From NCBI RefSeq assembly GCF_964204645.1, contig NC_134025.1, forward strand, positions 7,130,001 through 7,194,000: DNA of 64,000 nt, read 5' to 3'. A program made the position numbers and the translations under genes. The DNA comes from Tubulanus polymorphus. Its lineage: Eukaryota; Animalia; Nemertea. Shown piece by piece: positions 3,137 through 53,830 of this stretch (positions are counted from its first letter, which is position 1; every line of letters begins with the position of its first letter). The notes beneath the pieces are model-generated. The model did no database searches, was not told where the DNA came from, and saw only the letters and a program-made list of their open reading frames with translations.

Positions 3137-3392
3137 TCATTTGACGCCGCAAAAACTGTTACAATAACGTTTGATAACTATTCGTTATCTAAGCGGTTCT
3201 GTGTGAGTCGATGCGCACTACGTCATCAATATTGGCGCTTCGAAATAACAATTACAATTGCGAATATTGGCGTTTATTTTGTATTCAAATTCATTCCATG
3301 ACGCTTATTTTATTTTTGATAAATATGAGTAATCATTTTTGAGAGGAGGTGCACTACGTCATCGATATACCGCATCTAGACTGGTTGACGGT
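3137..3392 (+). repeat. Dispersed repeat, copy A
   Basis: Aligns by eye to the reverse complement of 53586-53830, e.g. ctgtgtgagtcgatgcgcactac and atttttgagaggaggtgcactacgtcatcgatataccgcatctagactggttg. Contains the internal repeat gcactacgtcatc twice. Confidence 0.8.
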
Positions 3393-6300
3393 CAATTCTT
3401 TTCTATCATCGACACATCTAAATCCAATATTACTCTATCGATTCTATTATATGATCTATAATATACTATTAATTGTCGACAATGTTAAGCAGTATATGTG
3501 TTGTTTATCAAGGCGTCAATAAACTTTCAAGTTTAGTTTTCTTGTTTATCGTACCAGGGACCATACTTAAACTCCACACTCCACTAAAGTCTCACTGTTT
3601 TGAAGAAGAAGCAGCAGATTGTTAATGTTTTAACCGATCTAATTTTTTTCCATCTCGAACTATATACCGATTTCCGTCGCACGCAAATTGTTTTACATTT
3701 CATTTTATTTGCACATTTGCCCGTGTTGTTAATAAGAAAATCCGTGACATAAAAGTTCATCGATTTCGACGGAAAAATATGTCGGTATATTACAAGTGCT
3801 CTATAAATAGTGTGAAGCAGTGACCGCGCGTTTATTGAATATTGTATCGGGTAATATATTCCTACGAGACTCGGCAGGCCAGCAGATGAATTGGTCTTGT
3901 AATGGCCATCCGGTTCATAAATCAAACCTCGCCGCACCAAACTTGTACAAATCGGTGGATTAATCATAACTAAAATAAATACCTCTTTTATTTGTCCGAT
4001 CGGATAATCATGGACATCGGATCGGCCGGACTGCTGTGAATCCCGGTGAAAGCATGCTCGCCTTGCTTTCTCCGGGTGAAAAATTAATACGGCCGGCTAC
4101 TCATCGACTAGAGGATGAGAGAAAATTTCACCATCAGTGCCAACGATGATTTGAATAATGTAAATGCAATTTACGACAAAAATCCCATCAGAGAGATGAG
4201 ATATGTGAGTTGGTTTTGCCCAAAAAGTTGCTGATGCATCTGCATGTCTTAAAAGCTGATAGTTAAAACATTGTCATAAATGAAATGAGAATCGAAAGAT
4301 TAACTTTTTCTTGCTGACACAACATTTAGCGGTTCGATTCGGGTATTGTGAATTCCATCTTTCAAGAGAAGTTGACTTACAAACTCAAATTCTTTATTGA
4401 TTTCAACTCTATGAATCTCGTCCTGTTCATTGCGGGTTAAATACTAATTCTGAAGCGGAATAATTCATTTTCGGTTATTCAACCTAAGATGGTAAACCGA
4501 TGTCATAATTTGCACTATAACTATACTATCGACTCCATGGTTGTTCACATGGTTCAGAATCTGCCGCTAACGTTATTTCCAATATCAGATTAATTGAACG
4601 GGAACGACACTGAGTAATATATCAATGGCAATCAAACACTTCGGTAAGACTTATACAACTAATTGAGAGAAGAACCGGTAAATAACAAGAACCCTTCATA
4701 ACTAATCCTACTTATTCCCTACTTATACGGCTAATAAATGCAGTCAGTTGATGCCTAAGTTGATGATGACTGAAATATGAAATATACGTTGATCGTATCA
4801 TTTCAGCTCGCTAATAAACTGGCCAGGTATAATTAGTTTATTGAACACGATAGAAATATATATTTTAGATAATTTCGTAAGGCTCATTCTTATACTTTAA
4901 TTCTTTTCACGCTTCTCGCAAAGCAAATGGATAATTCGACATATAAAATGAGACGCCGATTACGATCCTAAGGAAACTGATGCCTGACATTACTCCTGAT
5001 CACCGTTGCTGGCCTTGGCTATTGAATGGCCATTCAGAAGTTAGTTAAAGGGACAAGTATGCTGAAAATTTCCTTGGATACCGGTAATGTGATGGGCAAA
5101 GCGACGAAAAAGCTGTCTGGTAAACGGAATAGCAGGTATCAACATTTTGATGAGTCTCAGTAGTACGATCACACGTGTCCCTAATGGTGATGTATCATTT
5201 CTGATCCACAATTTATAACCACGGCGAGCAAAAGGTCGAATTAAGAGAATTACCGTCAAACTGGATTGTATGGACGGCTGCATGTTCACCGCGTAATTGA
5301 GGACTGACTTGGGATATGGTTGCGACGTGTTGGTGGCGAAATGAAAACGACAGGCCGAAAGATTTGCAAGGCTATCTATTTCAATGAGAAACATAAGTGT
5401 AATTAATGTTTCGCCGTCATAATCCGAACATTTCAAGATTGAAAACTGACGACTGTTGAAGTGGCACTTCAAAACCGTGGAAAAAATGTATTTACACAGT
5501 CATGTGTACTGAAGAAATGTTTGTAAGAACTGCGCGATGAAAACAAATTGAAACTGAAGATTTAAATCTGACTAAAATTCATTTTGTTGCATATTTGAGA
5601 TGGATTTCATCTTCAAAACGTCGAGGGAAAAGCATATCTCGAAAAATTATGCTTGACGCTGATTTTCCCGCTGTTTTTATTGGGTTATCGTTCTTCTCTG
5701 CAAAAACAATTCTGGTGAGTAAAGATAGGCGGTAGAAAGTAAGCGATCTTACATGTAGGAAAATAATGAAGATAGCGGCTAGTTGATTAGTTATCTGTCG
5801 TGCATACAAAAACCCATTAACTGTCATTTTACGACTAACGAATGACCTGGATTCCTAATCCGCACCGCAACGATATCATCCACCAAACTCCGGCAGACAC
5901 CAAAAAGTGGCGCGTAAACCAGTAACCGTGCATCTTTCAACACCGAGCCAATAGCGGATTAATAGTCCGAAGAAGGACTATTACCTACAGAAGAAAGAAT
6001 GCCTAATCGTAACGCAAGGTGTCTGTGATGGGTCCTTCAGGGACTATAATTAACCACTGACATTACCTAATCAATGTATCGGAGCGGTGAATCTCAATGA
6101 CCTCATAAAAAGTCCGGAGATGCGTCCAGTGTCGATGCCGAGTGACCGGTAAACAACAGGAAGGTAAACGCGTTAATGAAAACGAATGGTCGGGAAAGAG
6201 AGCGCTCATGAGGACACATGTTCCTGTCTAAGCAATACATAAGTCTCAATATAACCGCAGAACGAGTCTGCAATATTTCACACAGGTTCGAGCATTATTT

Positions 6301-26600: not shown

Positions 26601-27340
26601 TATTTCTTTTAAACGTCTTCAAACTTTTTCTATAAAAAGATGCCAGACATAATTTGATTATCAACGAATATTGACTTCTTCCGACCGTCGCAGAATTGTG
26701 TACTAGCGCTCGGTCGTTTGTTCGTTGTAAGTATCTGCCCGCAGTGTTGCGCAAAAAAATCATTAGCTAATCATTTAAATACCGTATGTGTCTACAGAAA
26801 TCGCTAAATCGATTGCGCAAACAAGAATAATTCGAAATCAAAATATAGTGAAGACAGCTACGATGAAAAGCAAATTCATCGTATCCGCGGACGTGCCATC
26901 GTCTGTGCAGTGTTTATGTATTATATTGAGACTTTCAATAATTGTTCCCCAGTCTCCACATTAAAACCGAACGCTCCCAGGGGCCAATCAGATTTTATGC
27001 TTAAATTCCCGTAAAGAATAAAAGAGTGAAATTCCCTCGGCATTTTGTGATGACTCATAATTACATCTTGATCAGAAGACGAAATATTATGAGTACGCAC
27101 ATACCAACAAACGATAAAACCTCTTTTAATTGGTGGTTTGTCCCCGATGTATTCTCGAAACGTACGTTTTTTCATTTTGACAAGTTAGGCTAGAATGCAC
27201 TACTGCGGCACGGGAAGCATTACTCGTATAAAAGCAATGGCAAAGTTAGATTCCATCTAAACGAGTTGAGGTTGAATCCTATGGAACAGCATGCGTTAAA
27301 GGGGACAAGTGGAACAAGAGAAAAAGCCCATCTTCCCTCG

Positions 27341-27648
27341 GCAGGGATTCGAATCTGATGGCATCGCTGGGCTCAGCCACGACACGAAACCCTGCCACAC
27401 TAGACCGGATGCGCAGGTACATGCGCATGTTTGCCGCAGAAAACTTGCGGCGCCAATCAGATTTCTCGTTGTAAAGTCGTTGAGGCAAATTTCACGGATT
27501 AACTTTGAATGGAAAATACCTGGCTTAAACAAAACGGGATTTCTGATTGGCTAATAATGACTTAATCTAAGCTGCACTTGTAGCCAGGCTAGTGTGACAG
27601 GGTTTCGTACCGAGACGAGTCTTGAAGCCATCAGGTTGGAATTCCTGC
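27341..27648. mobile_element. Foldback / long palindromic MITE-like element
   Basis: Nested inverted matches: gcagggattcgaatctgatggcatc vs reverse complement gcaggaattccaacctgatggcttc; acgaaaccctgccacactagaccgg vs acgaaaccctgtcacactagcctgg (22/25); gccaatcagatttctcgtt vs gccaatcagaaatcccgtt. Confidence 0.75.
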
Positions 27649-28193
27649 AGGTAAACGCGGAAATGGGACACAGAAAAATGTTTCCGTGCGTCGTGTGCGT
27701 TGGGCTTATGAAACGTAGAAATCGCAACAAAAAAATAATTTCACGTAAATTCGGAATTCGGAGTTTTTATTCGTCCGGTGTGCCTTGTTATTTCTGTTGA
27801 GTCATTCTCGGTAAATCCACAAGTTGCCTGGAAGAATGATAATGCGACACATATTGGGGGCAAAATGACGAAATAAACTCTGTGTCTGAATCACAAATTA
27901 CGTGCACAATCGCACAGTTTTTAAGGCCACATTCTGAAACAGATCAAACAATCAATTAATTGTAGAGTGATTCATAATCCGCCAATATCAGAAACAAGTA
28001 GTTTCATCAGATAACTAACGCTAATTATGTATATCTTAGTGGCTTAAGGCGGTTTTTTCCTAATTGATGAGTCAGTTACATCTGTTACTAGCATTGTATT
28101 TACAAAACTCTGCGATAGCGACCATAATTCCTGAGCGATTCCAAGCCAAATCCTATTAACCTAATGCACGCAAATCTGGATTCCGAGCCAAAG

Positions 28194-28606
28194 TATTCAC
28201 CTTGCCGTTGATGAAAATACTATATACGTGTTGCGACGATAATATAGAAAAAATCCCACGACAAAGACAAAAAACAAAGTCCGAACATATTTCTGATTTT
28301 TATCCATTCTCTATTGTATTTGTATAGTTACCGCCTAGCTTGCTCCGTTGTTTTTAGCGTGTAACTGTTTCTATGTTGATTTTCCCCTTTAGTTTGTATC
28401 ACTTTTGATTACTGAAATTAGTGTCTTTGCTCTGAATTGTAAATATATTTCATAATTTCTGTTGTAACTCAGTATTCCTGAAGATGACTATTAGAATATA
28501 GCCGAAACGTCGAATAAACTACTAGCTCTAGGAAACATCTTCGGACTTTAGGTTTTTCGTATTGATTGTGGGATTCTCTCTATAATATTCACCTTACTTT
28601 GATGAG
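28194..28606 (+). mobile_element. Non-autonomous Penelope-like (pLTR) or retrozyme-like unit carrying the hammerhead
   Basis: Inverted arms 28241-28293 and 28532-28589 (~80% identical by eye). Flanking direct repeats tattcaccttgccgttgatga (28194-28214) and tattcaccttacttttgatga (28586-28606) match at 18/21. Internal hammerhead plus AATAAA; no RT or GIY-YIG ORF. Confidence 0.6.
28473..28516 (+). ncRNA. Minimal type I hammerhead ribozyme (Penelope-like element type)
   Basis: UAUUC-CUGAAGA-U-GACUAU-uagaau-AUAGCC-GAAA-CGUC^GAAUA. Stem I UAUUC/GAAUA is a perfect 5 bp. The CUGANGA and GAAA core boxes are intact. Stem II is 5/6 bp. Stem III is reduced to a palindromic ACGU. The GUC cleavage triplet ends at 28511. 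An AATAAA overlaps at 28513-28518. Confidence 0.75.
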
Positions 28607-33842: not shown

Positions 33843-33975
33843 CAGGGGCCAGTTCCTCGAAAGTTTGTTAGACATAACCAGTGGATAGCTGACATAGCGA
33901 CGATTAAAAGTTCATTGTTACTATGGTACTTATCCGCTGGTTATTTTCAACCAACCTTTGAGCAACTGGCCCCTG
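33843..33975. mobile_element. 133-bp palindromic MITE
   Basis: The first 45 nt (caggggccagttcctcgaaag...) match the reverse complement of the last 45 nt at 37/45, and the terminal 12 bp are perfect. Confidence 0.85.

Positions 33976-51457: not shown

Positions 51458-51493
<36 letters not shown>
51458..51493. repeat. (CGT)12 microsatellite
   Basis: Perfect trinucleotide run; explains the poly-Val and poly-Arg ORFs in the track. Confidence 0.95.
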
Positions 51494-52832: not shown

Positions 52833-53585
52833 TGTATCTGATTCGTGACTGTGTCAATCATTAAGGGCACAAACATTTCAGATGTTTTTTCCTATCTTTT
52901 GAAGAACGGCGTGAGATATGTCAGTTTGTATGATTCTCGTACAGGAAAATATGAGGCGAAATCCTATTAGAATCGTACTCAAGAATGTCTAGTAGAGAAC
53001 CAGTAAGTGGGATGCACGTAGACATTGTAGTGACACATTGCGACGACAAGCATTTAAATCCTGAGCATTTCCACAAACCATTGAAAGCAGGAACTTCGCA
53101 GCACGGAACGTCAACTTAATGAAAATAGATTAATATGAATGTGACACTTTAATAGTCAGTCAGCGTTTAGCTATTCTAGCGCGTAAAGATCCGAAACCAC
53201 TGTTGAAATTCAATTAAATCAGTCACATTTTATTGAAAAGCGAGTTAAAATCACATGCAATTCATGAAAAGCAATTTTCCGAGTCAATATCGAAGTAAAT
53301 GCGCTGTGAAGAATTGTCTACTCCGTTGAAAGATGCGAGAATGTTTTCATAATGCTTCACGAATAGTTTTTCAGTCCACGCGACGCGATATACGTGTTTT
53401 TCTCTTCTTTGATCGGAGCGACTTGTACCAAAACTCATTTCAAACAAGAAAACGAACTCGAAAGAATATTGACGCCTTGAAGAATAACGCATATATTGCT
53501 TAATATTCTTGAAAATAGATAAGATGATATAAACTGTACGATATTAGGGAACTATTTTGATTTGAACATACCGATTGAATTCATC

Positions 53586-53830
53586 ACCGGCAACCAGTCT
53601 AGCACCGATATAGGTGACGTAGTGCACGCGCTCTCAAAAATTGATTATTCAAATATATGAATATTATTGAAATACATTTGATAATGATATTCCCGATTGA
53701 AATTGTTATTTTGAAATGCCAGTATTGATGTTGTAATGCACGTCGACTCACACAGGACCCTTAACAACGCGTATCAGGTATCAATGTATATAAAAATTGT
53801 TCTGGCGGTTTTTACGACGTCTAAAAATGA
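53586..53830 (-). repeat. Dispersed repeat, copy B (inverted relative to copy A)
   Basis: caaccagtctagcaccgatataggtgacgtagtgcacgcgctctcaaaaat and gtcgactcacacagg are reverse-complement homologues of 3137-3392. Confidence 0.8.

What the first reader, a model, noticed from the sequence alone, without database searches (positions are those of the whole stretch)
28473..28516. Minimal hammerhead ribozyme hidden in non-coding DNA
Seen: all catalytic-core nucleotides (CUGAAGA, GAAA, GUC), a perfect 5-bp stem I, a 5/6-bp stem II and a stem III reduced to palindromic ACGU. Known: minimal type I hammerheads with a palindromic, nearly absent stem III are characteristic of Penelope-like element pLTRs and animal retrozymes, and they cleave mainly as dimers. 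Inference: if this region is transcribed on the + strand, the RNA could self-cleave after 28511, next to an AATAAA, which would affect processing of any host transcript.
Basis: partly seen in the sequence, partly recalled or inferred. Interest (0 to 1): 0.8.

Follow-up and report, generated by a model that had tools for sequence, protein, structure and literature searches.

The report
Leftover Penelope retrotransposon hammerhead ribozyme
The motif is a real minimal hammerhead ribozyme sequence inside a 370-base scrap of a highly repeated element that is likely a Penelope-type jumping gene, and this lone, mutated copy, likely lying antisense in a host intron, is predicted to cut little or nothing, so it is an ordinary member of a known kind.

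Summary
Observation confirmed. A minimal type I hammerhead lies at 28473-28516 (+), the only one in the window; 0 of 1000 shuffles give stems this good. It is a repeat copy: 1388 contigs of one run lie on 171 nt around it. It sits in a ~370-nt insertion (28215-28585) with an inverted copy of its own 3' end and an imperfect ~20-bp direct repeat at both borders, the described anatomy of 5'-truncated Penelope-like elements (PLEs). Distant same-core motifs lie beside PLE ORFs; the window has no such ORF and the parent element was not retrieved. This copy has a stem II mismatch that most family copies lack, no partner, and is likely antisense to a host gene, so an effect on host transcripts is unlikely. 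Of more interest, many family copies begin at 28469-28473, at an Initiator-like site 31 nt behind a TATA-like box, and several form 67-nt partial tandems: the element's RNA likely starts at the ribozyme and is copied uncut. The scan has noted PLE hammerheads often on other DNA (2576 notes), this start-site idea included. New member of a known kind; interest 0.25.

The parts
28194..28214 (+). Left copy of an imperfect ~20-bp direct repeat, likely the target-site duplication
   Evidence: 18 of 21 columns match 28586-28605; 9 of 19701 random pairs of the same geometry score as high
28215..28238 (.). 24 nt inside the insertion with no match elsewhere in it; possibly an end extension present on the inverted arm only (untested)
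   Evidence: lies between the left direct repeat and the inverted arm; one-sided 30-40 bp tails are described in PMC8557442
28239..28293 (-). Inverted, 5'-truncated copy of the element's 3' end (matches 28532-28588); holds no hammerhead
   Evidence: blastn 79% over 57 columns, E 3.4e-07; local score 65 against a maximum of 39 in 676 control comparisons
28294..28347 (+). T-rich stretch between the inverted arm and the part shared with other copies; likely the 5'-truncated start of the forward copy
   Evidence: position only; no listed contig piece aligns here (table 8, cut list)
28348..28468 (+). Upstream part of the repeat (likely 3' UTR/pLTR), shared with a minority of family copies
   Evidence: 3 of the 8 X1 pieces listed begin at 28348-28361 and run through the hammerhead (table 8)
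28440..28447 (+). TATA-like box (TAAATATA), 31 nt before the likely start; other copies have T at 28442
   Evidence: T at 28442 in 13 X1 contigs, 450 of 688 depth. The window's own letters fail a strict TATAWA test
28469..28473 (+). Initiator-like TCAGT; likely transcription start near 28471, where many family copies have their 5' end
   Evidence: loose 5' ends at 28469, 28470, 28471, 28473 in 57, 40, 42, 38 X1 contigs, agreement of the loose letters 0.40-0.43; the Initiator consensus is recalled, not from a call
28473..28516 (+). Minimal type I hammerhead: stem I 5 bp, intact core, extra T after A9, stem II 5 of 6 bp, palindromic ACGT, predicted cut after 28511
28484..28486 (+). ATG formed by A9, the extra T and G10.1, placed like the ORF start of the anole Poseidon element; here closed by a stop after 5 codons
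   Evidence: translation; PAc geometry in PMC11167929
28513..28518 (+). AATAAA overlapping the 3' strand of stem I, 3' of the cut site; likely part of the element rather than a host signal
   Evidence: also right behind the motif in L013/L016/L019 and L011
28517..28588 (+). 3' end of the element; family copies end at 28578-28588, likely where reverse transcription starts inside the RNA; partial tandems rejoin from about 28534
   Evidence: all 8 X1 pieces listed end at 28578-28588; summed depth falls from about 10000 to 39 between 28579 and 28598
28586..28605 (+). Right copy of the direct repeat (likely target-site duplication), beginning where family copies end

Best explanation
This is a minimal hammerhead ribozyme motif in a 5'-truncated, decaying scrap of a high-copy repeat that is likely the terminal repeat (pLTR) of a Penelope-like retrotransposon, and this lone copy is predicted to cut little or nothing and likely does not process host RNA. 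Mechanism, inferred from anatomy plus PLE literature: in the parent element a promoter in the pLTR starts RNA at about 28471-equivalent, two bases before stem I; the element's RT-endonuclease nicks a target and starts reverse transcription inside the RNA about 110 nt downstream (28578-28588-equivalent). Copying to the RNA's 5' end gives the common ~115-nt copies that span the cut site, so the template was uncut; template jumps give 67-nt partial tandems and inverted arms. The window's copy came from a longer read-through RNA, since it keeps 120-175 nt upstream, was truncated, gained an inverted arm and a target duplication, and has since drifted. In the parent the ribozyme likely cleaves slowly, as a dimer or with help from the element's protein.
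For: Shown: motif beyond chance. High copy number: 1388 X1 contigs laid on 171 nt, summed depth up to 636544 against 35-39 in the flanks, repeated in X2 and X3 (the tool warns that this depth is no copy number). Family majority restores the stem II pair: T at 28502 in 317975 of 320516 depth; with majority letters stems I and II are the minimum-energy fold of 28471-28520. Inverted arm, flanking direct repeat, 5'-end pile-up and go-back joints match PLE insertions as described in PMC8557442. Of 17 distinct same-core metagenome motifs, 10 have 2 or more extra stem II pairs (31 pairs against 10.0 shuffled, 0 of 10000) and stem I pairing exceeds permuted partners (38 against 26.1, 7 of 10000). PLE ORF pieces lie within 0.5 kb of the motif in 7 of 21 loci (4 distinct groups); in L011 an ORF with RVT_1 and GIY-YIG above Pfam cut-offs stops about 84 nt before it. 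The closest relative (L013/L016/L019, 84% over 44 nt) has a GIY-YIG remnant upstream. Decay: CpG-type transitions hit core positions in tens of contigs, e.g. G12 (28504) to A in 67 X1 contigs.
Against: No PLE ORF in the window (tblastn best E 1.4; profile best E 0.14), and the family's own autonomous parent was not retrieved, so the PLE label rests on anatomy and on distant relatives that match only over the ribozyme. 14 of 21 metagenome loci show no PLE ORF at E under 0.01, and 7 of 17 distinct motifs have fewer than 2 extra stem II pairs. No compensatory pair change within the own family could be shown: T to A at 28499 (85 X1 contigs) breaks a stem II pair with no listed partner change (37 rows not shown). 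A TATA box is not general in the distant relatives (1 of 17, P 0.44; Initiator-like 3 of 17, P 0.014). In longer RNA the hammerhead is not the predicted fold even with majority letters (stem I probability 0.00). All three runs are one study, and X1 may be the source of the window.
Confidence: 0.85

Rival explanations
1. The family is a non-autonomous, retrozyme-like element with a 67-nt unit that spreads on its own account through tandem RNA, double-hammerhead cleavage and small circles, and the window holds a dispersed monomer.
For: Of 11 go-back joints with letters shown (12 of 30 rows displayed), 5 give a period of exactly 67 nt, one 69 and one 72, and 10 return to 28469-28477 (table 5c; my arithmetic). 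Retrozyme units as short as 51 bp are reported (10.64898/2026.07.22.740005).
Against: Each tandem joint is seen in contigs of depth 30-92, near single-copy level. No tandem repeat at this locus. The modelled 67-nt dimer is predicted to fold otherwise: double hammerhead -13.0 against -29.7 kcal/mol, stem probabilities 0.03 or less (the model ignores core contacts). Helix sizes are PLE-type, not canonical. The window copy has 120-175 nt upstream and 50 nt downstream that lie outside the 67-nt unit.
Confidence: 0.09
2. The copy has been kept or co-opted by the host and cleaves a plus-strand transcript next to its AATAAA, changing 3' end formation or RNA stability.
For: The core is fully intact although the two direct-repeat copies differ at 3 of 21 columns and the inverted arm is 21% diverged. 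It keeps a TATA-like and an Initiator-like site, so it could be transcribed.
Against: Single copy without partner; monomers inactive in PMC4209133 and the PAc ribozyme inactive without protein; stem II weakened; identified exons are on the minus strand on both sides; the copy was picked because its core is intact, so intactness is not independent evidence; AATAAA is a family feature.
Confidence: 0.04
3. The match is a chance arrangement in AT-rich intronic DNA.
For: No Rfam match; unremarkable folding energy; the bare core pattern appears in 3 of 100 shuffles.
Against: 0 of 1000 shuffles with both stems; the motif is the most repeated part of a multi-copy family whose majority letter repairs stem II.
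Confidence: 0.01

Closest known systems
[quoted passage not shown]
   Same: Type I; helix I 5 bp (4-5 described); helix II longer than canonical (6 here; 6-8 described); unpaired base between A9 and G10.1; G10.1-C11.1; palindromic 15.2-16.2; thousands of mostly single copies from truncated PLEs.
   Different: This copy has an A.C mismatch in stem II; its parent ORF is not in hand; activity untested; the paper does not, in the parts read, place the RNA start at the ribozyme.
Poseidon element PAc of Anolis carolinensis (Frangieh et al. 2024, PMC11167929; parts 1-2 of 4 read)
   Same: ATG at the start of stem II with the cut 26-28 nt downstream; element 3' ends about 100 nt after that ATG (111-118 in PAc, 95-105 here); uncut RNA is the template in PAc and copies here span the cut site.
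   Different: The frame after the ATG closes within stem II here; PAc is full-length and biochemically active; the clade of this family is undetermined.
EN+ PLE insertion structure (Craig et al. 2021, PMC8557442; 12 of 28 passages read)
   Same: 5' truncation, partial tandems, an inverted 5'-truncated copy at the 5' side, possible one-sided tail.
   Different: Naiad and most Chlamys elements lack canonical hammerheads, so this is more like Penelope/Poseidon, Neptune, Nematis or Hydra; no ORF here to place it.
Animal non-LTR retrozymes (PMC7229834, parts 2-3 of 6; 10.64898/2026.07.22.740005, parts 1-3 of 5)
   Same: Type I hammerhead, no ORF, low GC, long target duplication, PLE ancestry; the family has some short tandems.
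   Different: Retrozymes are tandem arrays (150-450 bp units in PMC7229834), mostly with canonical hammerheads, expressed as circles; this locus is a monomer with a minimal motif and an inverted arm.
Penelope of Drosophila virilis (PMC2377424, 12 of 15 passages read; PMC4209133)
   Same: Promoter in the pLTR; hammerhead near the RNA's 5' end; the AG at 28471-28472 abuts helix I as the fly intron's 3' end does.
   Different: The fly promoter is TATA-less and internal, with the start 46 nt before a 75-nt intron; here copy ends and a TATA/Initiator pair point to a start at the ribozyme itself.

Membership tests
Minimal type I hammerhead of PLEs (min-HHR) | Core C3-U4-G5-A6-N7-G8-A9, G12-A13-A14-A15.1, U16.1-H17 | tested here: met
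   28478-28484, 28504-28507, 28510-28511
Minimal type I hammerhead of PLEs (min-HHR) | Helix I of 4-5 bp closing the motif; helix II longer than 4 bp | tested here: met
   5 bp and 5 of 6 bp; 6 of 6 with the family's majority letter at 28502
Minimal type I hammerhead of PLEs (min-HHR) | Extra base between 9 and 10.1; G10.1-C11.1; palindromic 15.2-16.2 with no loop III | tested here: met
   T28485; G28486-C28503; ACGT 28507-28510; features from PMC4209133
Minimal type I hammerhead of PLEs (min-HHR) | Large within-genome family with compensatory changes | tested here: inconclusive
   Family is large; the tool gives no linked changes, and one frequent stem II change has no listed partner. Distant relatives keep stems with different letters
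Minimal type I hammerhead of PLEs (min-HHR) | Self-cleavage as a dimer or with protein help | not testable with these tools
   Folding only
Rfam hammerhead families | Score at the gathering threshold of a hammerhead covariance model | tested here: not met
   No match; not filed under an Rfam family
Autonomous EN+ Penelope-like element | ORF with telomerase-like RT and GIY-YIG endonuclease | tested here: not met
   None in the window; so filed as a likely PLE-derived remnant, not as an autonomous PLE. Met in the distant same-core locus L011
PLE insertion (truncated copy) | Hammerhead near the 3' end; 5' truncation; partial tandems | tested here: met
   Motif about 70 nt from the 3' end; 5' ends and go-back joints
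PLE insertion (truncated copy) | Inverted 5'-truncated copy at the 5' side | tested here: met
   28239-28293, E 3.4e-07
PLE insertion (truncated copy) | 30-40 bp tail on one end only | tested here: inconclusive
   24 unexplained nt at 28215-28238, and a 50-nt part absent from tandem units
Non-LTR retrozyme | Two or more consecutive tandem units, each with a complete hammerhead | tested here: not met
   One copy at this locus; short tandems exist at other loci, completeness not seen
Non-LTR retrozyme | Expressed as small circular RNA | not testable with these tools
   No RNA run available

The most novel reading that the evidence does not exclude
In this family the capped RNA starts two bases before the hammerhead, from a TATA plus Initiator promoter, so the ribozyme is the RNA's first 45 nt and cleavage would remove the cap and the ATG built into the core: a switch from message to a non-translated RNA. 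The genome records both states: hundreds of copies that begin at the start site (uncut template), a precise 67-nt partial tandem made by a jump from the RNA's 5' end to a complementary site at 28531-28534, and two head-to-head joints with one end exactly at 28512, the first base after the cut (2 of 3 opposite-strand joints), which would be fossils of cleavage in living cells.
Probability: 0.35. Interest if true: 0.5.

Novelty: new member of a known kind. Interest (0 to 1): 0.25.

Why it matters
As a single locus it matters little: animal genomes hold thousands of such motifs (PMC4209133; over 6000 type I hammerheads in one coral, PMC7229834). Its value lies in the family. What the PLE hammerhead is for is still open (PMC8557442; no cut-site RNA ends found for PAc). 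If copy ends in this genome mark the RNA start at the ribozyme and, rarely, the cut site, the timing of cleavage in the PLE cycle can be tested from DNA alone. The locus also gives a complete small insertion, with both borders, an inverted arm and a target duplication.

Tried and rejected
No whole genome is held for the window, so copies could not be aligned one by one and no covariation analysis of the own family was possible. No RNA holder listed (3 runs of unknown kind, one study); this says nothing on expression. Gaps in X2/X3 cover near 28029-28190 are not read as an empty site. Rfam: nothing. IMG/VR scan: 0 matches. The stem II counts printed were off by one position and were redone; only one search's counts are used. 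The 28259-to-28514 opposite-strand joint is most simply a normal copy laid partly on the window's inverted arm and is not used. A splice acceptor as the cause of the 5' pile-up (CAG at 28470-28472) was considered; a shared upstream exon would give high agreement among loose letters, but agreement is 0.40-0.43 in X1, so it was set aside. A search for longer homologues of the first minus-strand exon found none among 920 candidates (weak evidence), so the link of the three exons into one gene is not shown; the MAM-like exon has no Pfam match and its label is recalled. Pfam was run on 5, then 15 chosen window frames out of 1676 six-frame pieces of 25 aa or more, only minus-strand ones, so a plus-strand gene is not excluded. 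A predicted hairpin at 28565-28586 has three G-U pairs and is not kept in the inverted arm; not used. Lunse et al. (PMC5785218) is not held; I saw only its title in a reference list. Supplements were not read; those of PMC4209133 and the 2026 preprint may list motifs or unit lengths that bear on novelty.

Full report
The observation. The bare core pattern occurs in 3 of 100 shuffles, but with stems it is the single hit in the window, and 0 of 1000 shuffles reach both stems at five pairs. Rfam does not recognise it, and the isolated strand folds no better than shuffles. The defining features listed by Cervera and de la Pena (PMC4209133, parts 1-2 of 4 read) are all present.

It is a repeat. No genome is held, so I laid the contigs of three public runs (one study, two samples, kind unknown; X1 may be the window's source). 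In X1, 1388 contigs lie on 28430-28600, and summed depth reaches 636544 at 28484-28489 against 35-39 in unique flanks; X2 and X3 show the same profile. The tool warns that this is no copy number. At least 177 X1 contigs have long unrelated sequence 5' of 28469-28473 (57, 40, 42 and 38; agreement 0.40-0.43; 6 X1 rows shown, 329 rows of all runs not shown). I infer hundreds to thousands of copies. The majority has T at 28502 (317975 of 320516 depth), which restores the missing stem II pair. About 45% of depth has T at 28511, a GUU site. CpG-type transitions hit core positions in tens of contigs (28504 in 67, 28508 in 66, 28509 in 73), as expected of copies that decay. One frequent change (28499, 85 contigs) breaks a stem II pair without a listed partner (37 rows not shown), so covariation in the own family is not shown.

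Anatomy of the locus. 28239-28293 is an inverted copy of 28532-28588 (79%, E 3.4e-07; score 65 against at most 39 in 676 controls). An imperfect direct repeat, 18 of 21 columns, lies at 28194-28214 and 28586-28605; 9 of 19701 random pairs score as high, and the right copy starts where family copies end. The insertion is thus about 28215-28585. Three of eight listed X1 pieces share the window's sequence from 28348-28361 onward. 5' truncation, partial tandems and an inverted truncated copy at the 5' side are the described structure of PLE insertions (PMC8557442, passages).

Link to PLE proteins. The window has no PLE ORF (tblastn best E 1.4; profile of 60 of 150 RT-endonuclease proteins, best E 0.14). 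A metagenome scan with the core pattern gave 21 loci, 22 matches, 17 distinct. The positions not fixed by the pattern pair beyond chance: 31 extra stem II pairs against 10.0 (0 of 10000 shuffles), 10 of 17 with two or more; stem I 38 against 26.1 (7 of 10000). Seven of 21 loci in four groups carry PLE ORF pieces within 0.5 kb: L011, an ORF with RVT_1 (E 2.4e-08) and GIY-YIG (E 6.8e-05, above cut-off) ending about 84 nt before the motif; L005/L015 and L013/L016/L019, GIY-YIG remnants upstream; L006, an RT head-to-head with the motif. The other 14 show none. These loci match the window only over the ribozyme (best 84% over 44 nt), so they show the class and not the parent. An IMG/VR scan was empty.

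How it likely works. Family copies mostly begin at 28469-28473 and end at 28578-28588. TCAGT at 28469-28473 is Initiator-like (consensus recalled), and a TATA-like box lies 31 nt upstream, better in other copies (T at 28442 in 13 contigs); only 3 of 508 such Initiator-like sites in the window have that neighbour (a test made after the fact). I had seen the pile-up, but reading it as a transcription start came from earlier scan notes. Distant relatives support it weakly: Initiator-like 3 of 17 (P 0.014), TATA 1 of 17 (P 0.44). In the anole element PAc, the ORF starts at stem II, reverse transcription starts inside the RNA 111-118 nt further on, uncut RNA is the template and the ribozyme cuts only with the protein present (PMC11167929, parts 1-2 of 4). 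Here an ATG sits at the same place (28484-28486, closed after five codons) and 3' ends fall 95-105 nt after it. I therefore infer that the common ~115-nt copies are complete cDNAs from an internal priming site to the RNA's 5' end. Of 11 go-back joints with letters shown, 10 return to 28469-28477 and 5 have a period of exactly 67 nt; I read them as template jumps. Two of three opposite-strand joints have one end at 28512, the base after the cut; the table does not fix their direction and they may be one event, so this is a hint only. No loose-end row at 28512 is among the best supported.

Is this copy active? Probably not. With its own letters the mean pairing probability of stems I and II in 28471-28520 is 0.18 and 0.17, against 0.52 and 0.59 with majority letters; in longer RNA stem I is not predicted in either. 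The intermolecular ACGU duplex is worth -1.7 kcal/mol, and a modelled 67-nt dimer prefers another fold (-29.7 against -13.0); these models ignore core contacts. There is no second copy in 64 kb. A single minimal hammerhead gave no cleavage and dimers little, and 8 of 9 Xenopus dimers gave none (10.64898/2026.07.22.740005, parts 1-3 of 5). The exons I could identify are on the minus strand: a CBM96-like first exon (61676-61001; Pfam E 5e-04, below cut-off; Atlas 0.96), an LDLa exon (46145-46038, E 3e-07) and a MAM-like exon by eye (22134-22000), all with phase 1 GTAAGT donors. If they are one gene, which is inferred (one search found no longer homologue), the ribozyme is antisense in an intron and absent from the pre-mRNA. 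Plus-strand genes were not searched systematically.

Comparison and novelty. It works like, and by sequence is, a PLE minimal hammerhead. It is not an autonomous PLE (no ORF) and not a retrozyme at this locus (no tandem; PMC7229834, parts 2-3 of 6). A review states the dimer model (PMC6765202, passages). In D. virilis the promoter is TATA-less and the start lies 46 nt before an intron (PMC2377424, passages). Five literature searches (listings only, apart from the papers named) showed no paper placing a PLE start site at the ribozyme or describing this host group's elements; that is limited evidence. The scan holds 2576 notes with these words in at least 71 genomes, several with the same start-site or cut-site reading, and none for this genome. 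Other notes call the host a ribbon worm, which I did not test. Verdict: real, new member of a known kind, interest 0.25; the family's copy ends are the part worth pursuing.

Noticed in passing
window 61676-61001, 46145-46038, 22134-22000 (minus strand): Three phase-1 exons that may form one gene for a secreted or surface protein: signal peptide plus CBM96-like domain, an LDLa repeat, and a MAM-like start (label recalled). No longer homologue was found.
   Followed up: partly
window 27329-27620: A second very high-copy repeat (summed depth up to 91780 in X1) with a sharp left border at 27329 and an internal 25-nt inverted pair (27384-27408 / 27584-27608); MITE-like.
   Followed up: no
window 3195-3533 and 53455-53759: Two diverged copies of a dispersed repeat of about 340 nt in opposite orientation, 77-85% alike in blocks.
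   Followed up: no
window 33843-33975: A 133-nt imperfect palindrome (65-nt arms, 75%, 3-nt spacer), likely a small foldback or MITE element.
   Followed up: no
family contigs, joints at window 28528-28534 to 28469-28473: The 67-nt tandem junction is itself a short palindrome: the letters before the downstream copy complement its stem I 5' strand, and are predicted to pair with it and block the hammerhead. This could reflect fold-back copying before a template jump (speculation).
   Followed up: partly
L014 950-1022: Two same-core hammerheads head-to-head within 73 nt on opposite strands, a tight inverted pair.
   Followed up: no
L005/L015 3703-4096 and 7186-7748: Direct and inverted copies of a hammerhead-bearing terminal repeat 3.7 kb apart, with a GIY-YIG remnant upstream of the first.
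   Followed up: partly
window, whole: CpG observed/expected is 1.33, yet the repeat family shows many CpG-type transitions, which may mean methylation restricted to some repeats or loci. Also (CGT)12 at 51458-51493.
   Followed up: no
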